From Bacilli bacterium (GTDB lineage Bacteria; Bacillota_I; Bacilli_A; RFN20; CAG-826): a DNA stretch of 64,000 nucleotides. The notes beneath the pieces are model-generated. The model searched no databases. It worked only from the letters and a program-made list of their open reading frames with translations, and had not been told where the DNA came from. Each line of letters starts with the position of its first letter. Position 1 is the first letter of the stretch. The DNA lies in assembly GCA_045631885.1 (NCBI GenBank), contig JAZQVN010000015.1:2452-66451 (forward strand). Reading direction: 5' to 3'. Below, piece by piece: positions 22,512-36,329 of the stretch. Made by a program: the position numbers and the translations under genes.

Positions 22512-23822
22512 ATGAAAAATACAAAATTATTAGTTCTTACTGCATTTACCGCGTTAACTTTAACAGGCTGTGGAAATACAGGTAGCCCAGCCGCATTACC
22601 AGGTGGCGGTCAAGAAGTTAATGTCAAAACCGAAGAAGGCAAAGCGACAATGAAAGCTCGCCTTGAAGGTATGGCAGAAACTTATGAAACGTTCGATTTA
22701 ACCGCTTTAGGTTTAAAAGTTGAATCAAAAGATATCAACTTCAACGCGAACGGCAAACTCGAATCTAACTTTGGTAACTTCGAAGGTAAATTAGGCTTAG
22801 AAAACTTCGGTGGCAATTTAGAAGTCGCTTTAGGCGAAGCTCCAGTAGATGAAATGCCATATCTCGGTGCCAGAATTACATTAGGCCAAACAACTGGTAA
22901 AGTCGCTTTAGACGGCAAAGTTCAATTAGCTGGTTCTGAAGACAATAACCCAGTTAAACAATCAATCGATTTATCCGGTGCATTAATGAATGCTTATCTC
23001 TATGGAGATAAATTCTATATCGATGGCAGTGACGCAAGTGTCTTATCTATCGTTGATAGAGCATCTGGATTTGCTAACGGCATCGTCAGTGATTTAGATC
23101 TCAACTTAGTGGAAATCGCCGCGCTAGCCAAAATGCTCGGTTATGATTTATCCGCGATCTTCTCAAAAGACCAAAAGAGTTTTGATTTCAAAAACGCTTA
23201 TGAAACATACACTAATGGTGGCAAAGGATATATCAAAAGCTCATTAACAGTTCCATGGATGATGGTCCCACCAATCGTTAAAGCTCTTGTCGGCTCATTA
23301 AAAAAAGTTAATGAAGAATCAGGTAAATCCCCAATTGATGAATTCGTCACAGGATACACCATGTTAGATGAGAAGATCTCTGGATTACAATTCAAAACAT
23401 ATGGTGAAAAAGGATTTGGTTTCCAATTCGATTTATCTAAAGAAGGCTTAACCACTGCGATTACCGCATTCGCTGAAGAAAACGGAGATGAAGAAGATAA
23501 AGCTAACGCTCAAAAAGCTGTTGAAGACATCAATAAATTCTTCAACAAAATGGATCTTTGCTCTTCCATCTATATTAATGAACAAGGCTTATTAGAAACA
23601 ATTGCAACATATATTAATGTTGAAGCCAACATCAAATTAGGTGAAGAAGATTTAGCGGAATCTCCATTAAGTTCTGTTGATTTTGTTCTCACTGCGAAAG
23701 AAAACACAAAGATTTCTGTCTGTTATAACGATGCAGTTGAACTCAAAATCCCAAGCGCTGAACAATTAGCGACTTATAAAGAAATCGTTCTTCCTGGCCA
23801 AAATAACGAAGGCGAAGAATAA
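22512..23822 (+). CDS. Lipoprotein of unknown function
   Basis: Lipobox LTLTGC; SD GGAGG. Confidence 0.75.
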   Translation: MKNTKLLVLTAFTALTLTGCGNTGSPAALPGGGQEVNVKTEEGKATMKARLEGMAETYETFDLTALGLKVESKDINFNANGKLESNFGNFEGKLGLENFGGNLEVALGEAPVDEMPYLGARITLGQTTGKVALDGKVQLAGSEDNNPVKQSIDLSGALMNAYLYGDKFYIDGSDASVLSIVDRASGFANGIVSDLDLNLVEIAALAKMLGYDLSAIFSKDQKSFDFKNAYETYTNGGKGYIKSSLTVPWMMVPPIVKALVGSLKKVNEESGKSPIDEFVTGYTMLDEKISGLQFKTYGEKGFGFQFDLSKEGLTTAITAFAEENGDEEDKANAQKAVEDINKFFNKMDLCSSIYINEQGLLETIATYINVEANIKLGEEDLAESPLSSVDFVLTAKENTKISVCYNDAVELKIPSAEQLATYKEIVLPGQNNEGEE

Positions 23823-30823: not shown

Positions 30824-31030
30824 TGCTCGATAAAACATATTAGATATGAACACGAGTCGTTTGTGATGAGTGTAATAGCGAAATTCTCTATCGAGCACAA
30901 CATAAAGGGTTCACTAATGGTTATTGAAGATCGGAAACGATAACCGCCCTAGTGTCCCGCATAAATAGTTTGTTTGACTTAAAGTCCTTCCATACTAACC
31001 CTTATTCGCAAGAGTAAGGGCTTTTATTTT
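30824..31030 (+). ncRNA. Candidate structured ncRNA of about 200 nt, family not recognised
   Basis: Promoter TTGATT(30790)-17-TACTAT(30813); 9-bp stem TGCTCGATA/TATCGAGCA; second arm GGG..CACTA...TAGTG.CCC; terminator CCCTTATTC-gcaa-GAGTAAGGG followed by a T-tract. Confidence 0.5.
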
Positions 31031-31076
31031 ATTACCATGATTGTATAATGACTAATGGATACTCGGGGGTTATATT

Positions 31077-31997
31077 ATGAGTTCGTTTAAAGATTTAAGA
31101 ATTGTCGATAACTTCTATCAGACAAGTGCATTTTTCCCAATGCCCACTATTTTGATTTCTACCTTAGATGAAGAAGGTAACACAACATTAGGAGCCTACT
31201 CCTTATGCTTCCCTTATTACATCGCTGGTAAGAGTTATTATGCGATGATATTAGAATGTCGTAATTCATCTAACACCGCGCAGAATATCTTAAGAACAGG
31301 TAAGTGCGCGTTAAATTTCTTAGAAGATGATAGAAAAGATTTTGCCACTACTGTTAAATTAGGTTTCCCAGGTGAAACACCAAAAGAGAAGATGGCTAAA
31401 TCTAATTTTGTTTTAGAGAAAGGACAAGCTGAGGGAGAAAGACCTTTAGTCATCCAAAAAGCTTACCAGGTCTTTGAATGTACTTGGGATGATACTTTAG
31501 AGGATGCATATGAAGACAAGACTAAAATCGGCCAATTAGAAGGTATTGAAGGACCATATCGTAACTTCAATGGTGTTACTTCTAAATTCGGATGCCACTT
31601 CATCTTAAAAATCGATAAGATCCTCATGAAAGAGAAATTCTATAACGCGATTATTAACGGAGTCAAAGCTAATAACTTCCCAAAAGTTCCTGTTGATTAT
31701 GGTTATAGAGATTCCACATATTTCTGGTATACAAGATTTAAATCTAAACCAATTAAAGAACCTATTCCCGCGGGAAAAGAAGCAAGTGTTGATTCAGTCA
31801 TGTACGCGGCTAATAGAATTGATGACAAGATTAAATTCACTAAAGAAGCTTGCCAGATGATTGTGAAGATTCCTCGTGTCTTCTTAAAAGCGGCTTTAAC
31901 TCAAATGGTCAATTATGCAAGAGAAAAAGGTTGGACATTAATTGATGTCGAACAGATGAAAGAAATTCGCGATAAAAGAAGCAAAGAAAAGAAATAA
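31077..31997 (+). CDS. Flavin-reductase-like (DIM6/NTAB) protein with a C-terminal PCP_red-like helical domain
   Basis: FFPMP, SSNTAQNILRTGKCALNF; C-terminus FTKEA...KIPRVFLK...YAREKG. Confidence 0.7.
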   Translation: MSSFKDLRIVDNFYQTSAFFPMPTILISTLDEEGNTTLGAYSLCFPYYIAGKSYYAMILECRNSSNTAQNILRTGKCALNFLEDDRKDFATTVKLGFPGETPKEKMAKSNFVLEKGQAEGERPLVIQKAYQVFECTWDDTLEDAYEDKTKIGQLEGIEGPYRNFNGVTSKFGCHFILKIDKILMKEKFYNAIINGVKANNFPKVPVDYGYRDSTYFWYTRFKSKPIKEPIPAGKEASVDSVMYAANRIDDKIKFTKEACQMIVKIPRVFLKAALTQMVNYAREKGWTLIDVEQMKEIRDKRSKEKK

Positions 31998-32184
31998 TTC
32001 AAAATTTTAACTAGATTAAGACCTTTAAGGTCTTTTTCTTTTTGCCAAAAAATTTTTTAAAGAAATTTACGATTTTTTGCGACAAAATGACCATTTTTTT
32101 TCGCATTAGTATATGGAGGCTTAAAATAGTGTTTCAACATTATAGGCAGCTTTCGTCCGTCCTCTCGGAAGGGAGGATTAATAC

Positions 32185-32268
32185 TTGCTAGGACTCTTGG
32201 CCAGGAGAGTAGCAATACTTCTTCTGGTAATTGTGTTGGTTCTATTATTTGCCGGCTTGTCCGCCTAG
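32185..32268 (+). CDS. 27-aa hydrophobic peptide, candidate type I toxin (MLGLLARRVAILLLVIVLVLLFAGLSA)
   Basis: TTG start 8 nt after GGAGG (32172-32176); SD sequestered in hairpin TCCTCTC-ggaa-GGGAGGA; RR followed by one TM helix. Confidence 0.65.
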   Translation: MLGLLARRVAILLLVIVLVLLFAGLSA

Positions 32269-32276
32269 GTAGAATT

Positions 32277-32338
32277 GAAAAAAGGCTCCCGAGGGAGTCT
32301 TCCATAACGAGAGGTTGACGTTAACAACCTCCCCACAC
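32277..32338 (-). ncRNA. Small RNA copy 1 (about 62 nt), candidate antitoxin or sRNA
   Basis: Promoter TTGAAA(32373-32368)-17-TAAAAT(32350-32345); hairpin GAGGTTG-TTAACGT-CAACCTC; terminator with U6. Confidence 0.65.
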
Positions 32339-32432
32339 AATTTTATTTTAACGATAACAGGAGCGCATTTCAAGTAGGACGGGGCTCCCGCCTCCTAGAA
32401 CACTCGTTTTGGCAATAGCGCTTAGGTAGAAT

Positions 32433-32498
32433 CAAAAAAGAGATCCCGTGAAGGATCTCCAACTACCGAGAGGTTGACGTTAACAACCTCCCCACAAC
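32433..32498 (-). ncRNA. Small RNA copy 2 (about 65 nt)
   Basis: Promoter TAGAAA(32533-32528)-17-TACAAT(32510-32505); same 30-nt core as copy 1; different terminator GAGATCC-ttcacg-GGATCTC followed by a T-tract. Confidence 0.65.
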
Positions 32499-32536
32499 AA
32501 TTATATTGTAACGATAACAGGAGCGTATTTCTAGCG

Positions 32537-35500
32537 TTACTTGTTCTTTCTTAACTCTTCGATTAACTTGTATTCGTCTAATGGTTTATAGAAGTGATAA
32601 CCTTGACAGTTGCATCTCTTATCCATGTCTCTTAATAAAACGTATTGGTCAGAGTTTTCAACACCGACGAATGTAATCTTTAAGTCATGTTCTTGAGATA
32701 ACTTGTCTAAGGAAGTAATTTCCGCTAAATGCTTTGGATTAACTTCGATATCACCAACTAAAGAACGGCCAATCTTGATTTCGGTAAATCCTAATGATTT
32801 AACTTGTTCTAATGATAAGTATTCACCAGAATATTGGTCGACAATCAAAGCAATATGGTGATTTAAGATACCTCTAGCGATACCTTTAAATTGATCCATG
32901 TGAGAATAGATTTCTTTTTCCGTAATTTCAAATCCTAAGAAGTCTCTTGGTAAATGATAATTATTGAATAAGTCGAAGATACTTTGGAAGAAACCGGGAT
33001 CATCGAAATATGAGAAGTCTGTGTTCATTGTTAAACGAGTGAAACCAAAGACTTTAAAGATGGTTAAACCATGTTGTTGATATAATTCACCTATGTAATT
33101 AATTAAGGCGTTAGAAATGAGAGAGATCTTGCCGTTTTTCGCGGCGACTTTGATTAACTCGTCGGCATTAAAGACACTATTACGATAGTTATCGGAAAGA
33201 CGGATAAGAATTTCAGCGCCATAGATTGATTTATCATTAGCCCTCACCATTGGTTGAAGAGCAACGGAGAATGTTTTATTACCGAATTGTTCTTCGATGA
33301 CGGATAACATAAATTCATTTCTACTCGCGCTTCTGACATAGTCGCTGTCTGGGAAGTCAATCTTATCTTCATTGATAACAAAGTCCATACTGTTGAAGTG
33401 ACGTAAGGTGTATTTTAAGAAGTCTTCCGCGTTCGCATATTGTTGAGGGAAGGAGTATGGGAGATATGTTCCTTTGAAGGAATAATTTACCCCATTATAT
33501 TGATAATACTTCTTACTGACGTCATAGATCTTTTCAATGAAGTTAACAATATCGATTTGACCAGTTTCTGGTAATAAAATCGCTATTGATTCCGGGCTAA
33601 AATAGAAGATATTCGCATTTTGTTGACGAATTCCTTTGATTTCTTTAATGAATTGTCTAACTAAATATAAATAACCTTCAGAGCCAGCTTCTGCGAGAAT
33701 CGCATCGTGGTTATCGATACGTAAAACTAATAAGTATCCTCTCGCGTTAACTGTGTATAAATTTTCAATTGCTAACTTTAATGAATAATAGGAATTGATG
33801 AGCAAGTCGTTATCAAAACGGTTCGTGGTTTCTTCGCCTTTTTGTAAACGACGGACAAACATTCTGATTAACTTTTGTTTAGAATCATTTAACGTTAAAG
33901 CGGTCTCAAACATGTCGTGCGCGGTCTCACTAATCATCTTCTTATTTGTCTTAAGAGGGCAATTTTGACAAACGCCATCTAAGCCATATAACGCTTTAAA
34001 ACATTTCTCTCCAACTTTGGCTTTTGGGAAGAACGCATTAAAGTGTTGAGAGAAGCTCGTTAAGTCATATGTATTACGATCAATACGATATAAAGCGTAG
34101 TTACTTGTCATCATCACGCTATTGATTTCGCGATACGCTTCACTAATCTTTGAGGCATCATCAGAAAGCATGAAGAAGTCACCAATACGATAAGAAAGGA
34201 TGAACATCGCTTCTCTGATATATGAGTCGATGAATAAGTCTTTATTCTTGTTGAAGAAATAGATGACTGCGACGACGTTTCCTTGGTTATGGACTAAATA
34301 ATAGAAACCACCAGAAACGTTAATCTTATCGAGGAATTTCGCTAACTTATAACCCGCGTGTTTTCTGCTTGCGAAATAGCAGGAATCATCTGGGTCTTTT
34401 GTTTCTTCCATCGCTAAGACGAAGTTCTTATCAATCATCGCGCCTTCTTTAAAGACTTCTTCTTTATCTTTTGAGATATAAAGTAAGGAATAATAAGAAT
34501 CATTAACATCATCTAAAGTAATAACACCGCCAAAATCGATATCGAGATAGGTGATTAAATCTTTAAATGTATTTCTCATTGAATTCAAAGACGCTTCTCT
34601 TTCAGAAGAAGAAACTTTTAATTCCGGTAATTGTCCTAAAATACGGGACATGTTATTTAAGTTCAAAGAATTTTGTAAGATTAAGTTTTCTGATAAGGCT
34701 GTTAAACGATTTGGTAAATAAAGGTTCATTAATTGGCCTTGTCTTTTCGCGTACTGTAAATCTGGGAATAATTCATCGATGTTACTATATGGATAACAGA
34801 CAATAGAGAATCTCGCGTTTATTGTAGATAAACCATCGAATGTCTTCTTCGCGATTGATAAATCTTTCATCGCCGCGGTTAATCTTTCTTGAATATGAGA
34901 GAAAGAATTAATTCTTGGTAAGAAAACATAAAAACCAGTTTGGTTGTCATTTGGAATAAATAAGATATTTGGATATTCTTCAAAATTAAGCGTTAATGTT
35001 GAAATAATGCGTTTAGATTCTTCTTCATTAATCGTATCTTCATCTAAATCATAGAAGACTTCGATAATGACATTTCTAAAGTTTTGGGAACAATAAATTA
35101 AAGAACGAAGTTCACTTTTAAATGATTCCAAAGTAACTAATTTATCTTCTAAAGAGATGTAGTTAAGTGGAATATAAGCTTTAGAAATATCATTAGATAT
35201 CATCGTCGCATTAGAAACGATGGTATTAAAGTTATCTAAATCGGCGTTTAATTTATCAAATTCATCAATTCTGGTGTTGGTTGGGAAGCTCGCTCTAGTT
35301 GGAATGTTGTTAGAGAAGTTTCTTAACATAATTGATGTTGTTTTATATAGACCATCAACATAAGTTTCTTTTAAACGGAAATAAATGATGATTGAAATAA
35401 CGCCATACGCTAAAGATAAAACGAGAACATAAATTCCTGCGATTGTTAAAAATATATCGTTTCCTGTGGAGATATGAAGGTAGCCAAAAATGACAAATCC

Positions 35501-35590
35501 CACGAGGATAAGGATAAGAGCCACTCCTGGAATTAAGAAAGAGAGGAAGAAGCTCGCGGACATTGAGATTTTTTTATTCTTTTTTGCCAT
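32537..35590 (-). CDS. Membrane protein with degenerate GGDEF, GAF-like and degenerate EAL domains (probable c-di-GMP receptor)
   Basis: 2 N-terminal TMs; C-terminal LQP..GAEILIR, FEITE, DQYSGEY (in place of DDFGTGY), VGVE, QGYHFYKP. Start MAKKNKK at 35590. Confidence 0.8.
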   Translation of the reverse strand: MAKKNKKISMSASFFLSFLIPGVALILILVGFVIFGYLHISTGNDIFLTIAGIYVLVLSLAYGVISIIIYFRLKETYVDGLYKTTSIMLRNFSNNIPTRASFPTNTRIDEFDKLNADLDNFNTIVSNATMISNDISKAYIPLNYISLEDKLVTLESFKSELRSLIYCSQNFRNVIIEVFYDLDEDTINEEESKRIISTLTLNFEEYPNILFIPNDNQTGFYVFLPRINSFSHIQERLTAAMKDLSIAKKTFDGLSTINARFSIVCYPYSNIDELFPDLQYAKRQGQLMNLYLPNRLTALSENLILQNSLNLNNMSRILGQLPELKVSSSEREASLNSMRNTFKDLITYLDIDFGGVITLDDVNDSYYSLLYISKDKEEVFKEGAMIDKNFVLAMEETKDPDDSCYFASRKHAGYKLAKFLDKINVSGGFYYLVHNQGNVVAVIYFFNKNKDLFIDSYIREAMFILSYRIGDFFMLSDDASKISEAYREINSVMMTSNYALYRIDRNTYDLTSFSQHFNAFFPKAKVGEKCFKALYGLDGVCQNCPLKTNKKMISETAHDMFETALTLNDSKQKLIRMFVRRLQKGEETTNRFDNDLLINSYYSLKLAIENLYTVNARGYLLVLRIDNHDAILAEAGSEGYLYLVRQFIKEIKGIRQQNANIFYFSPESIAILLPETGQIDIVNFIEKIYDVSKKYYQYNGVNYSFKGTYLPYSFPQQYANAEDFLKYTLRHFNSMDFVINEDKIDFPDSDYVRSASRNEFMLSVIEEQFGNKTFSVALQPMVRANDKSIYGAEILIRLSDNYRNSVFNADELIKVAAKNGKISLISNALINYIGELYQQHGLTIFKVFGFTRLTMNTDFSYFDDPGFFQSIFDLFNNYHLPRDFLGFEITEKEIYSHMDQFKGIARGILNHHIALIVDQYSGEYLSLEQVKSLGFTEIKIGRSLVGDIEVNPKHLAEITSLDKLSQEHDLKITFVGVENSDQYVLLRDMDKRCNCQGYHFYKPLDEYKLIEELRKNK

Positions 35591-35594
35591 ACTC

Positions 35595-36329
35595 TTACTC
35601 CCTAATAATGTCATTACGACCAATATCACCGATACAGGTAACAATCGCTCTACCGACCGCGGAATATTGTTTTAAAACATTGATATAACTATCCGCGTTA
35701 GATGGTTGGTCAATTTGATATTCGACAACTTTCACCGCGATAACCGGAATCGAGTGAATTGTCGCCGCTAAGAAGGCTCCACCACTTGTGCAATCGAAAA
35801 CGACATTAGTCTTATGTCCTAAGACATAATCGTTCATGATAAGCGGCATAATCTTATTAGTTTTATCTAAAATACCATTCGCTGAAATATATGTCGCGAC
35901 TTCGTATCTTGAGAAGCTTCTCTTTTCAAGTGCCGCGGAAATATAACCGATAACTTCATCTTGAGATTCTAATGATCTTGGTAAATGAGGTAATTGACCT
36001 AATTTCACATTAGCCTCTTTAACTTGGTCAACATCCCCTAAAATAACTCTACGAGAAATAACAATATCTCCTGGAAGAGTGTCTTTAGAATAAGAGACAC
36101 ATTTACCAACGACAAAGACTAACACGACGAAGTATTTTTGAATAATGTAATTAGTCACTAAAGAAGAAAGGTAAGAGGTGTATAAATCGTAAACTAAAGC
36201 AACTTCTTGGTTGAAGATGGAACCGTATTCCACTTTCACAAAACCAAAAATCGTATCATCTTTACGGTTAGTCATGACACTTTCGTAATACAAGATGTCA
36301 TCGTGTTTGGATCCGAGAATTAAGATCAT
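35595..36329 (-). CDS. MTA/SAH-nucleosidase-fold (PNP_UDP) protein with degenerate active-site motifs
   Basis: Length and pattern match MTAN (PGDIVIS...D, G..P), but the DME and ISD motifs are replaced by DCT and VVE. Confidence 0.6.
   Translation of the reverse strand: MILILGSKHDDILYYESVMTNRKDDTIFGFVKVEYGSIFNQEVALVYDLYTSYLSSLVTNYIIQKYFVVLVFVVGKCVSYSKDTLPGDIVISRRVILGDVDQVKEANVKLGQLPHLPRSLESQDEVIGYISAALEKRSFSRYEVATYISANGILDKTNKIMPLIMNDYVLGHKTNVVFDCTSGGAFLAATIHSIPVIAVKVVEYQIDQPSNADSYINVLKQYSAVGRAIVTCIGDIGRNDIIRE

What the first reader, a model, noticed from the sequence alone, without database searches (positions are those of the whole stretch)
32150..32301. Unannotated 27-aa hydrophobic peptide with a sequestered SD: candidate type I toxin
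Seen: below the ORF-track cut-off. TTG start, GGAGG locked in a 7-bp hairpin, a second hairpin covering the start codon, RR plus about 17 hydrophobic residues, and a stop just before a hairpin shared with a convergent sRNA. Known: Ibs- and Fst-type toxins are short TM peptides translationally silenced by mRNA structure. Inference: a type I TA locus, family unassigned.
Basis: partly seen in the sequence, partly recalled or inferred. Interest (0 to 1): 0.7.

Follow-up and report, generated by a model that had tools for sequence, protein, structure and literature searches.

The report
Tiny toxin gene with antisense RNA
A 27-codon gene for a greasy membrane peptide faces a tiny RNA gene, one of about seven such pairs in this uncultured gut or rumen bacterium; it is most likely a toxin-antitoxin module of an uncatalogued family, which makes it an ordinary kind of system in a new form.

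Summary
At 32185-32268 (+) there is a TTG-started 27-codon ORF (MLGLLARRVAILLLVIVLVLLFAGLSA). Its GGGAGG is locked in an 8-bp hairpin. A convergent, roughly 61-nt minus-strand sRNA gene follows, with promoter TTGAAA-17-TAAAAT, two hairpins and a U6 tail.

The same genome holds six more ORF-bearing loci with the same order of parts, plus one orphan second sRNA copy in the window (32419-32534). A second genus of the same family, G005, holds seven more.

In the main sequence type the ORF is clearly coding:
- It is always open, at 24-26 codons.
- Second codon positions are conserved.
- Arg and Leu codons are switched synonymously between genera.
- Indels are in frame.

The sRNA promoter hexamers are kept, and the terminator stems covary.

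No Rfam, Pfam or NCBIfam family matches. I found no relatives elsewhere and no paper.

Two caveats apply. The window's own peptide is a sequence singleton, tied to the family only by architecture and flank DNA. There are no expression or toxicity data.

Best reading (about 0.65): a new type I toxin-antitoxin family with the Gram-positive 3'-side antitoxin layout. In this genome it may also have a mok-like leader ORF whose stop overlaps the toxin start. It is a new member of a known kind, of moderate interest.

The parts
32018..32044 (+). Intrinsic terminator (hairpin 32018-32034 plus T-run) that closes the upstream flavin-reductase-like gene and stands at the head of the module
   Evidence: Terminator scan. 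A hairpin plus TTTTCTTTT stands at the same place in the C13 and C28 copies and in G005 type-a copies, with different stem sequences. Neighbour identified by Pfam Flavin_Reduct, E 3.4e-5, below the curated cut-off.
32039..32128 (+). AT-rich promoter/RBS cassette ending in GGAGG (32115-32119). It is a repeated element that also precedes many ordinary genes in this genome
   Evidence: blastn and motif scans of the genome. In front of ordinary long ORFs, including a RecA-like one, the same GGAGG lies 5-9 nt before the ATG. The exact TSS is unknown. A TTCGCA-16-TAAAAT match (9 of 12) at 32100..32127 is an alternative -10 reading.
32129..32191 (+). Candidate leader ORF: GTG start, 20 codons (MFQHYRQLSSVLSEGRINTC). 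It runs through the SD hairpin, and its TAG (32189-32191) overlaps the toxin start (TTGCTAG)
   Evidence: Read. The equivalent 18-codon leader ORFs in C13, C20, C22 and C9 end in ATGA on the toxin start. In C9 the SD and ATG are kept although the TAAAAT is lost. In G005 the leader ORF is only 1-2 codons long, so coupling is not universal.
32159..32178 (+). Hairpin sequestering the toxin's Shine-Dalgarno: anti-SD 32161-32166, GGAA loop, GGGAGG 32171-32176
   Evidence: MFE and centroid fold. The equivalent hairpin in C13-type copies (CCCAUCCUU-GACG-AAGGGUGGG) carries a compensatory U-A to A-U change.
32185..32268 (+). Candidate toxin ORF, 27 aa (TTG start), one predicted transmembrane helix. The alternative start TTG at 32197 gives 23 aa
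   Evidence: ORFs at the same position in the paralogous modules are 24-26 codons long with GRAVY 1.7-2.4.
32278..32301 (.). A6 run plus hairpin. It is the terminator of the minus-strand sRNA, and the same hairpin lies in the toxin transcript 14 nt after its stop
   Evidence: Every copy has a hairpin here with a different stem sequence. In G005, 98.4% of cells pair, 3 pairs carry compensatory changes, and 0 of 500 shuffles reach the covariation score.
32277..32338 (-). Predicted antitoxin sRNA, about 61 nt: 5-nt tail, 9-bp hairpin with loop UUAACGU, linker, terminator hairpin, U6
   Evidence: Promoter position, derived sequence and fold. It does not overlap the ORF.
32345..32373 (-). sRNA promoter: -35 TTGAAA (32373..32368), 17-nt spacer, -10 TAAAAT (32350..32345)
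   Evidence: 10 of 12 matches. The region is 84-85% identical over 57-61 nt to the C13 and C19 copies, E about 1e-8. TTGAAA-17/18-TA[A/T/G]AAT is kept in all five G000 copies that could be assessed.
32375..32397 (+). GC-rich element (TAGGA..CGGGGCUCCCG..UCCUA, contains CCUCC) just beyond the sRNA promoter. Possibly the 3' stem-loop or fold-back element of the toxin mRNA
   Evidence: Present after the sRNA -35 box in W1, C13, C19, C20 and C9. Predicted folds are inconsistent in G000. In G005 a stem that encloses the sRNA -35 box is predicted on the plus strand in 5 of 7 copies. Function is inferred.
32419..32534 (-). Tandem second copy of the sRNA unit (orphan antitoxin candidate) with only about 25 nt of a toxin-ORF 3' remnant: promoter TAGAAA-17-TACAAT (32533..32505), terminator 32460..32439
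   Evidence: Direct repeats D1-D3, 80-97% identical, spacing 157-160 nt. Promoter and terminator scan. Alignment.

Best explanation
The locus is a chromosomal type I toxin-antitoxin module of a family not yet catalogued.

The plus strand encodes a 27-residue (or 23-residue) single-helix membrane peptide. Its ribosome-binding site is locked in a hairpin.

The minus strand encodes a convergent RNA of about 61 nt, with its own sigma-A-type promoter and terminator. This RNA lies on the 3' side of the toxin gene without touching the ORF.

Proposed mechanism (inferred, not shown):
1. The toxin transcript has no U-tract after the shared hairpin, so it reads on across the sRNA gene.
2. The sRNA is then perfectly complementary to the toxin 3' UTR.
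3. The duplex is cut by RNase III, which both host genomes encode, and the toxin mRNA decays. This is how the Bacillus subtilis 3'-overlap systems work. Head-on transcription may add interference.
4. In this genome, toxin translation probably needs a short leader ORF. That ORF starts at a strong SD, runs through the SD hairpin, and stops on the toxin start codon, giving mok/hok-like coupling.

The second, ORF-less sRNA copy downstream would supply extra antitoxin, or it is the relic of a unit that lost its toxin.
For: 1. The anatomy in the window is as described.

2. The module recurs. In G000, five loci carry one closely related ORF type. They lie on C13, C9, C20, the C22 end and the C19 start, and two of them are cut by contig ends. 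There is also the window copy and a divergent copy at C28:65477-65830. G005, a different genus of the same family, has seven copies.

3. The main ORF type is coding.
- All 12 copies are open, at 24-26 codons, and start with ATG.
- The G000 type and the G005 type differ at 32 of 72 nt, split 13/4/15 over codon positions. The changes include CGC to AGA (Arg) and TTG to CTA (Leu).
- The one length change within G005 is an in-frame 6-nt gap.
- The ORF is far better kept than its flanks: 1 of 75 nt differs between C9 and C13, while leader and terminator stems are rewritten. In G005 the ORF is identical behind two unrelated leaders.

4. The sRNA gene is conserved.
- The -35 and -10 hexamers are kept at 17-18 nt spacing in 5 of 5 assessable G000 copies and 7 of 7 G005 copies.
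- The terminator stems all differ but all pair, and the U-run is on the minus strand only.
- Covariation in G005 exceeds all 500 shuffles.

5. An orphan sRNA copy without a toxin is what toxin loss under selection would leave behind.

6. No conserved protein neighbour exists. The flanking genes of six loci are unrelated housekeeping types.

7. RNase III is encoded in G000 and G005, above the curated cut-off.

8. The layout matches published Gram-positive families, in which the antisense RNA sits on the 3' side of the toxin mRNA and, in Fst/RNAII and SprA1/SprA1as, does not overlap the ORF (PMC8594479, passages read). The RNase III mechanism is from PMC6562991 (passages) and PMC3834814 (abstract).
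Against: - There is no evidence of transcription, translation or toxicity.
- The window's peptide is a sequence singleton. A profile built without it does not find it (E 50, rank 102). Searched alone, it finds only itself in 61 genomes. Its membership rests on architecture and on non-coding flank similarity.
- The 3' end of the toxin mRNA is unknown. If the mRNA stopped at the shared hairpin, complementarity would be limited to that hairpin.
- No separate trans-pairing region exists between the sRNA and the toxin's 5' region or start. Duplex energies are not better than shuffles in any locus.
- The G005 sRNAs would be only about 34-39 nt, little more than a terminator hairpin.
- pN/pS is about 0.45-0.5 between genera, but a frame-shifted control gives a similar ratio. 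Within genomes pN exceeds pS on very few changes.
- The leader ORF is not universal. It is 1-2 codons in G005, and it lies out of frame across the whole toxin ORF in the C28 copy. A -10-like TAAAAT between its SD and start could mean it is not transcribed.
- The family was found in only 2 genomes, so wide comparative tests are impossible.
Confidence: 0.65

Rival explanations
1. A harmless small membrane protein gene, for example an accessory subunit or membrane modulator, whose expression is tuned by a cis-antisense sRNA. There would be no toxin-antitoxin behaviour.
For: Everything shown is anatomy and conservation, and toxicity is not tested. Many bacterial small membrane proteins of 20-30 aa are not toxic (my own knowledge). 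The peptides lack a charged tail.
Against: There are seven copies per 1.2-1.5 Mb genome, each with its own dedicated convergent sRNA gene. Three peptide sequence types sit in the same scaffold. An extra ORF-less sRNA copy exists. There is no conserved protein partner. The SD is sequestered in a hairpin. Together these are the signature of selfish or toxic type I modules rather than of a housekeeping subunit.
Confidence: 0.17
2. The window copy is a decayed or silent relic. The 27-codon frame is not translated, and only the sRNA units (one or both) are functional, or nothing is.
For: The start is TTG rather than ATG, whereas all 12 copies of the main type start with ATG. The peptide has no detectable sequence relative. 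There is a partial tandem duplication.
Against: All parts are intact:
- an SD at ideal spacing inside a conserved type of hairpin;
- a frame open for 27 codons, with a length and hydrophobicity like the paralogues;
- the stop 9 nt before the A-run;
- an sRNA promoter at 10 of 12 matches;
- leader-ORF stop/start overlap preserved.
Confidence: 0.08
3. A secreted short hydrophobic signalling pro-peptide, of the SHP/pheromone kind, whose production is controlled by convergent antisense transcription.
For: The size and composition resemble short hydrophobic pheromone precursors: an N-terminal charge followed by a hydrophobic stretch. Convergent antisense control is known for enterococcal pheromone-inhibitor genes. 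Both points are my own knowledge.
Against: No regulator gene of any kind lies next to any of the six G000 loci whose neighbours were scanned. The copies are scattered among unrelated housekeeping genes. Peptide C-termini differ completely between sequence types.
Confidence: 0.05
4. A purely non-coding structured RNA element, in which the open frame is incidental.
For: The region is strongly structured (z -2.96) and richer in G+C than its surroundings.
Against: In the main type the frame is kept open in 12 of 12 copies across 44% nucleotide divergence. Second codon positions are conserved, codon switches are synonymous, and the indel is in frame. No Rfam family matches at E up to 10. No gene lies downstream on that strand to be regulated.
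Confidence: 0.03

Closest known systems
Bacillus subtilis 3'-overlap type I systems (txpA/RatA, bsrG/SR4, bsrE/SR5, yonT/SR6)
   Same: These are chromosomal Firmicute modules. The toxin is a small hydrophobic peptide. The antitoxin RNA is transcribed convergently from the 3' side. The SD is partly sequestered in the toxin mRNA. The antitoxin acts through the 3' duplex and RNase III, and for SR4 also by tightening the SD helix (PMC6562991 passages; PMC3834814 abstract). RNase III is present here.
   Different: In those families the antisense RNA also overlaps the ORF (PMC8594479 passage). Here it ends at least 9 nt after the stop. The sRNAs here are much shorter (about 35-61 nt). Here there is no match to any family in the Rfam and Pfam/NCBIfam libraries held. 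The peptides are shorter, at 24-27 aa. Whether the toxin mRNA really extends over the sRNA gene is unknown.
Fst/RNAII (par of pAD1) and SprA1/SprA1as
   Same: These are Gram-positive families in which the antisense RNA lies on the 3' side and does not overlap the ORF (PMC8594479 passage). The convergent genes meet at a shared hairpin. The toxin SD is sequestered by mRNA structure.
   Different: In both families the functional pairing lies outside the overlap, at the 5' or RBS region (same passage). I tested for that here, and it is no better than shuffled controls. The shared hairpin has a U-run on one side only. No toxin-family model in Pfam-A or NCBIfam scores at E up to 10. That Pfam holds an Fst model is recalled, not checked.
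hok/mok/Sok and ldrD/RdlD (leader-peptide-coupled type I systems of Gram-negatives)
   Same: A leader ORF overlaps the toxin start, so toxin translation would be coupled to leader translation. Coupling in hok/Sok and ldrD/RdlD is stated in PMC6562991 (passage). Leader ORFs are annotated only for these two families in T1TAdb. Here the overlaps are ATGA or TTGCTAG.
   Different: There the antisense RNA binds the leader's start region at the 5' side. Here the sRNA lies at the far 3' end and shows no complementarity to the leader start. There is no sequence relation. The leader ORF is not kept in G005.
Ibs/Sib and ShoB/OhsC of enterobacteria
   Same: The toxins are very short and almost purely hydrophobic, and the loci are multi-copy (sizes recalled from my own knowledge).
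   Different: The gene layout differs. Sib spans the whole ibs ORF, and OhsC lies 5' without overlap (PMC8594479 passage). The phylum differs. There is no profile match.

Membership tests
Type I toxin-antitoxin systems (the kind, not a sequence family) | Small (under 60 aa) hydrophobic peptide ORF with a predicted transmembrane helix | tested here: met
   27 aa, GRAVY 2.41. Paralogues are 24-26 aa with GRAVY 1.7-2.4. The definition is as in PMC6562991 (passage).
Type I toxin-antitoxin systems (the kind, not a sequence family) | A dedicated antisense RNA gene at the locus | tested here: met
   Met in silico only. There is a minus-strand promoter and terminator 30-60 nt apart. The promoter hexamers are conserved in 12 of 12 copies assessed with tools, and the stems covary. 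No RNA data exist.
Type I toxin-antitoxin systems (the kind, not a sequence family) | Base-pairing between antitoxin RNA and toxin mRNA | tested here: inconclusive
   Complementarity is perfect if the toxin mRNA reads past the shared hairpin, and no U-tract follows that hairpin on the plus strand. The mRNA 3' end is unknown. No trans-pairing exceeds shuffled controls.
Type I toxin-antitoxin systems (the kind, not a sequence family) | Toxicity of the peptide and neutralisation by the RNA | not testable with these tools
   Needs expression experiments.
Fst/RNAII | Toxin matches the Fst family profile | tested here: not met
   No Pfam-A or NCBIfam family scores at E up to 10 for three G000 peptides, or at E up to 0.01 (Pfam only) for two G005 peptides. 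Presence of an Fst model in those libraries is recalled.
Fst/RNAII | Complementary repeats pairing the 5' ends of the two RNAs, outside the overlap | tested here: not met
   Duplex energies of the sRNA 5' part against the start region fall within the shuffle distribution in all 9 loci that gave a result (fraction of shuffles at least as good: 0.13-0.83). One locus (G5_C15) gave no 5' part, and the script stopped before the eleventh. Also.
Fst/RNAII | Antitoxin matches the Rfam model of the family | tested here: not met
   No Rfam match at E up to 10 in 31000-33500, or at E up to 1 in seven paralogous loci.
TxpA/RatA and BsrG/E/H type | Antisense RNA overlaps the 3' part of the toxin ORF | tested here: not met
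   The predicted sRNA 3' end (about 32277) lies 9 nt beyond the stop at 32268. The same holds in all copies. The feature is as stated in PMC8594479.
hok/mok/Sok | Leader ORF translationally coupled to the toxin ORF | tested here: inconclusive
   Stop/start overlap is present in the window, C13, C20, C22 and C9. It is absent in G005 and in the C28 copy. Translation is untested.
hok/mok/Sok | Antisense RNA pairs with the leader's translation start region | tested here: not met
   The sRNA gene lies 3' of the toxin ORF. There is no complementarity above chance to the 5' region.
SHP/Rgg-type pheromone loci | Adjacent cytoplasmic receptor or regulator gene | tested here: not met
   Pfam on the flanking genes of six G000 loci found flavin-reductase-like, EAL, KTI12/AAA_33, Branch glycosyltransferase, serpin, deaminase, choline kinase, inositol monophosphatase and Ala_racemase_N-like domains, plus one protein with no hit. 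No regulator was found.

The most novel reading that the evidence does not exclude
The toxin-sRNA unit may be a self-contained plug-in of about 210-250 bp that is gained or lost inside the leader of a standard promoter/RBS cassette. Short direct repeats that look like anti-SD sequences would bound it. This is seen as a clean 210-bp presence/absence between C28 and a paralogous leader in C14.

Once inserted, the unit would be expressed only by ribosomes that translate the host leader ORF, melt the SD hairpin and re-initiate on the toxin start, while a minimal 35-61-nt antisense RNA at the far 3' end triggers decay.

That would combine hok/mok-type coupling with Bacillus-type 3' antisense control in one Gram-positive module. 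It would also show type I toxin cassettes behaving as tiny insertion units.
Probability: 0.15. Interest if true: 0.7.

Novelty: new member of a known kind. Interest (0 to 1): 0.5.

Why it matters
Type I toxin-antitoxin systems have been catalogued almost entirely from cultured Proteobacteria, Bacillus, staphylococci, enterococci and clostridia. T1TAdb lists 24 families from 218 species, and a text search of that paper for Erysipelo- or Tenericutes found nothing. This locus would extend the kind to a large uncultured gut and rumen lineage with small genomes, where seven copies per 1.2-1.5 Mb is a heavy load.

The family offers a compact natural series for studying how such modules are silenced. 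It has three unrelated peptide sequences in one scaffold, two unrelated leaders in front of one ORF, sRNAs shrunk to about 35-40 nt, and an orphan antitoxin.

If the leader-ORF coupling is real, it would, as far as I found, be the first such case outside the Gram-negative hok and ldr families.

The locus is not a new kind of system, and nothing here is experimentally shown.

Tried and rejected
**Known families**
- Rfam: nothing relevant at E up to 10 in 31000-33500, or at E up to 1 in seven paralogous loci. Only a neighbouring tRNA and an SRP RNA matched.
- Pfam and NCBIfam on the peptides: no family.

**DNA searches for relatives**
- The window locus against 151 family genomes gave matches in 3, counting G000. 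The two foreign ones are 27-nt matches in unrelated sequence without the layout.
- The C20 locus against 401 family genomes gave matches in 45, counting G000. The foreign ones are 19-71 nt, E 4e-4 to 1e-2, mostly to the AT-rich parts of the query. I did not inspect them one by one.
- Exact pattern scans found nothing: genome contigs 0 and 0, metagenome contigs 0 and 0.
- tblastn of the 24-aa peptide against plasmids and phages gave no match. The low-complexity filter may hide it.

**Peptide-profile six-frame searches (the genome samples overlap)**
- 61 relatives: 8 with E up to 10.
- 401 of the family: 20 with E up to 1.
- 401 of the order: 8 with E up to 0.05.
- 100 relatives of G005: 1, G005 itself.
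- 400 of the class scored: 3 with E up to 0.005; one genome was not scored.
- Only G000 and G005 hold true members.
- I inspected 4 of 6, 15 of 19 and 4 of 7 foreign rows. All were false.
- The rows I did not inspect lie in open frames of 47 to 831 aa, except one 17-aa frame (G411).
- I did not inspect the two foreign hits (G614 in a 43-aa frame, G598 in a 630-aa frame).
- The window peptide alone found only itself in 61 genomes.

**Searches that could not be run**
- The search for related loci and the search for homologous proteins do not accept queries this short. The large protein collections were therefore not searched.

**Expression**
- No RNA holder was listed.
- Laying the three same-study metatranscriptome runs placed only two 19-22-nt AT-rich pieces of one unrelated contig.

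**Pairing and selection tests**
- Trans-pairing of the sRNA with the toxin 5' region is not above shuffled controls. One search stopped with a script error after 10 of 11 loci, and one of those 10 (G5_C15) gave no usable 5' part.
- pN/pS does not discriminate against a frame-shifted control.

**Homology of the window peptide**
- Profiles built without the window peptide do not recover it. I therefore dropped the claim of peptide homology for the window copy.

**The third GC-rich element**
- No consistent fold emerged in G000.

**Literature**
- 'type I toxin-antitoxin' plus 'Erysipelotrich': 2 papers, both irrelevant by their listing.
- Four peptide motifs searched as text: 0 papers.

**Earlier notes of this scan**
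- Nothing was recorded on this locus or on look-alikes.
Full report
**What is in the window**

Between a flavin-reductase-like gene on the plus strand (31077-31997; Pfam Flavin_Reduct E 3.4e-5, below cut-off) and a convergent 1035-aa EAL-domain gene (32537-35644, minus strand) lies a 540-nt gene-free stretch. It holds these parts in order:
- A terminator of the upstream gene: hairpin 32018-32034 plus a T-run.
- An AT-rich promoter-like stretch ending in GGAGG (32115-32119).
- A GTG at 32129 that opens a 20-codon frame.
- An 8-bp hairpin (32159-32178, GGAA loop) that pairs GGGAGG (32171-32176) with an upstream CCUCUC.
- The flagged ORF, TTG 32185 to TAG 32268: MLGLLARRVAILLLVIVLVLLFAGLSA.
- An A6 run and a hairpin (32278-32301).
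- A second hairpin (32309-32333).
- On the minus strand, a promoter TTGAAA-17-TAAAAT (32373..32345; 10 of 12 consensus matches).
- A GC-rich element (32375-32397).
- A second copy of the hairpin-hairpin-promoter unit (32419-32534). It is 80-97% identical in three blocks at 157-160 nt spacing and has its own promoter (TAGAAA-17-TACAAT) and terminator.

The plus-strand stretch 32150-32301 folds with z = -2.96. The predicted minus-strand RNA 32338..32277 folds into two hairpins followed by U6, with z = -2.52.

The SD stem is 8 bp including two wobbles. The first TTG is only partly paired in the MFE. A second in-frame TTG at 32197 is an alternative start.

**Known families**

Rfam gives nothing relevant at E up to 10. 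Pfam-A and NCBIfam give nothing for the peptide at E up to 10.

**Paralogues**

The window lies in a 1.5-Mb, 35% G+C draft genome of 40 contigs. Earlier notes of this scan call it an uncultured gut or rumen Erysipelotrichaceae-like bacterium; I did not test that label.

A DNA search of this genome with the locus found the sRNA-promoter region again on C13 and C19, at 84-85% identity over 57-61 nt, E about 1e-8. Reading those places and following contig ends and further BLAST hits gave five loci with one closely related ORF:
- C13: MKDILVLIMKIILIVVMVILTLAR.
- C9 and the C22 end: the same peptide with one V-to-I change.
- C20 and the C19 start: MNKFLVKVMIIILIIVMVILTLAR.

The C22 and C19 copies are cut by contig ends.

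A further, divergent copy lies at C28:65477-65830 (MGKPVCLVIKILLVVCLCLLILAS, GTG start).

All complete copies show the same order of parts as the window: upstream terminator, AT-rich cassette with GGAGG and a start codon, structured leader with an SD-sequestering hairpin, a 24-codon hydrophobic ORF, A-run plus hairpin, a second hairpin, and a minus-strand promoter.

**A second genome**

DNA searches of 151 and 401 genomes of the same family found no true relatives. Exact pattern scans of the genome and metagenome collections found none either.

Six-frame searches with a peptide profile did find one other host. G005, a different genus of the same family, has seven copies. Examples are MRRRLLLVMKLVLILILVLWTLARFV and MRRRLLLILKLVLVVILAIWILAN.

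Every other hit that I inspected lay inside unrelated longer frames. Samples of the order (401) and the class (400 scored) added nothing convincing. The samples overlap, so I can only say the family was found in 2 of the genomes searched, not that it is absent elsewhere.

The G005 loci have the same layout:
- An upstream terminator and AT-rich stretch.
- GGAGG plus ATG, followed after 1-2 codons by a stop in five of the seven copies; in C1b and C3b the ATG lies 11-12 nt from GGAGG and opens a longer frame.
- An 80-nt leader of two unrelated sequence types.
- The ORF.
- An A-run plus hairpin.
- A minus-strand promoter TTGTAA-17-TAATAT.

The predicted sRNA there is only about 34-39 nt.

**Is the ORF a gene?**

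For the main type, yes.
- All 12 copies start with ATG and are open for 24-26 codons. One of the other frames is full of stops.
- The G000 and G005 versions differ at 32 of 72 nt, distributed 13/4/15 over codon positions. The hydrophobic second-position T is kept.
- Arg is CGC in one genome and AGA in the other, and Leu changes from TTG to CTA.
- The only length change within G005 is an in-frame 6-nt gap.
- The ORF is much better conserved than its flanks. C9 and C13 differ at 1 of 75 ORF positions, while their leaders and terminator stems are rewritten. In G005 an identical ORF sits behind two unrelated leaders.
- pN/pS (about 0.45-0.5 between genera) is not informative, because a frame-shifted control gives a similar value.

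For the window copy itself the evidence is indirect. A profile built without it does not recover it (E 50, rank 102 of the six-frame segments). Searched alone, it finds only itself in 61 genomes.

The window copy, and likewise the C28 copy, therefore belongs to the group by architecture and by non-coding flank similarity, not by peptide sequence. What is conserved is a 24-27-codon frame with GRAVY 1.7-2.4 at the same position.

**Is the sRNA a gene?**
- The -35 and -10 hexamers and their 17-18-nt spacing are kept in five of five assessable G000 copies. The -10 varies only at its third position: TAAAAT, TATAAT, TAGAAT. The orphan copy has TACAAT. They are also kept in seven of seven G005 copies, although the spacers differ.
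- The terminator stems have different sequences in nearly every copy, yet all pair. Examples are GGCUCCC/GGGAGUC, GCUCGUC/GACGAGC, GGUCAC/GUGACC with a UUCG loop, and a GCAA-loop version.
- On the G005 alignment, 98.4% of cells pair and three pairs show changes on both sides. None of 500 shuffles reaches the covariation score, and slid controls collapse to 21-54% paired.
- The U-run is always on the minus strand. On the plus strand no U-tract follows the hairpin.

The hairpin is therefore the terminator of the small RNA. The toxin transcript should read on into the sRNA gene.

**How it probably works**

No part of the sRNA outside the overlap is complementary to the toxin's leader or start beyond what shuffled sequences give. 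[quoted passage not shown]

The remaining target is the toxin 3' UTR, to which the sRNA is perfectly complementary if the mRNA extends that far. This is the logic of the B. subtilis systems: 3'-3' duplexes are cut by RNase III, and in one case the duplex also tightens the SD helix (PMC6562991 passages; PMC3834814 abstract).

Both genomes encode RNase III above the curated cut-off.

Beyond the sRNA promoter, all copies carry a GC-rich element. In five of seven G005 copies it is predicted to form a stem that encloses the sRNA -35 box, partly through G-U pairs that exist only on the plus strand. In G000 the predicted folds are inconsistent. I read it as the 3' structure of the toxin mRNA, but this is inference.

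**The leader**

The AT-rich cassette that ends in GGAGG is not special to these loci. Near-identical copies stand in front of many ordinary genes of this genome, including a RecA-like one. There the GGAGG lies 5-9 nt before the ATG and is evidently the ribosome-binding site.

By homology, the GGAGG plus start codon at the head of the toxin loci should also be on the mRNA and recruit ribosomes.

In the window this opens a 20-codon frame that runs through the SD hairpin and stops at TAG 32189-32191, inside TTGCTAG. In C13, C20, C22 and C9 an 18-codon frame ends in ATGA on the toxin start. In C9 the SD and ATG are kept even though the -10-like TAAAAT between them is lost.

This is the arrangement of mok/hok-type translational coupling, which the literature read here reports only for hok and ldr.

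Three points count against it as a family rule:
- G005 has only 1-2-codon mini-ORFs.
- In the C28 copy the leader frame runs out of frame over the whole toxin ORF.
- In every copy the 5' GGAGG is itself predicted to pair in a 5' hairpin.

I give the coupling about even odds for this genome.

**Context**

The flanking genes of six G000 loci are unrelated housekeeping types. No regulator, transposase or phage gene stands beside them. A tRNA gene and the SRP RNA gene flank two copies.

One comparison suggests how copies come and go. A leader in C14 is about 90% identical to the first 100 nt of the C28 locus, and again to about 48 nt at its end. It lacks the 210 bp in between, which in C28 hold the toxin ORF, terminator, sRNA and promoter. 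Those 210 bp are bounded by GGGCATCCTC and GCCCATCCTC.

**Verdict**

It is a new family of a well-known kind of system, so I rate it as a new member of a known kind with moderate interest.

The main weaknesses are the complete lack of expression and toxicity data, the singleton status of the window's own peptide, and the unknown ends of the toxin mRNA. No RNA holder was listed, and laying three metatranscriptome runs gave nothing usable.

Noticed in passing
window 32039-32128; also G000 C28:49941-50044, C28:86335-86407, C32:32346-32415, C29:5433-5487, C10:96036-96108, C9:21234-21287, C9:29844-29894, C23:19435-19480, C1:26790-26859, C27:30331-30372, C14 about 23247-23340: A highly similar promoter/RBS cassette of about 70-100 nt (TTTTGC[A/G]ACAAAAT ... 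T-rich ... TATAT-AGGAGG-TTTTTTT-ATG) is repeated more than a dozen times in this 1.5-Mb genome. It often sits just after a terminator and stands in front of unrelated genes: a RecA-like gene, a C39-peptidase-domain gene after dnaJ, and others. The distance from the TTGC[A/G]A box to the TATAT box (19-24 nt) does not fit a standard sigma-A spacing, so what reads it is unclear.
   Followed up: partly
G000 C28:65570-65789 versus C14:23340-23380: There is a clean 210-bp presence/absence. The C28 toxin-sRNA cassette lies between two near-identical 10-bp direct repeats (GGGCATCCTC and GCCCATCCTC). A paralogous leader in C14 has a single copy of the repeat and no cassette. In C14 the leader encodes a 15-aa ORF (MVFRKNGHPPKHYSN) ahead of a gene with its own SD. 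This is either an insertion with a target duplication or a deletion between the repeats.
   Followed up: partly
window 32419-32534: An orphan tandem copy of the sRNA unit, with a weakened -35 box (TAGAAA) and only about 25 nt of a toxin-ORF 3' remnant upstream. It abuts the stop of the convergent EAL gene.
   Followed up: partly
L091/L102 (G005 C1:130858-131290): Two complete toxin-sRNA modules stand in tandem 361 nt apart in G005, with different leader types (a and b) and different peptide variants.
   Followed up: no
G000 C9:10431-10502 and C20:27116-27200: A tRNA gene lies directly beside the C9 module. The small SRP RNA gene lies about 200 nt from the C20 module.
   Followed up: no
window 32537-35644 (-): A 1035-aa membrane protein in which only a C-terminal EAL domain is recognised by Pfam (E 2.2e-33). 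About 780 N-terminal residues have no family match at E up to 0.01.
   Followed up: no
window 32108-32137 (-): A minus-strand promoter-like site TTGAAA-18-TATACT (10 of 12 matches) points away from the toxin gene into the AT-rich cassette. By eye it is not conserved in the C13-type copies, so it is probably a chance match.
   Followed up: no
G000 C20:25279-26580: A 433-aa serpin-family protein (Pfam Serpin, E 6.5e-40) is encoded next to the C20 module.
   Followed up: no
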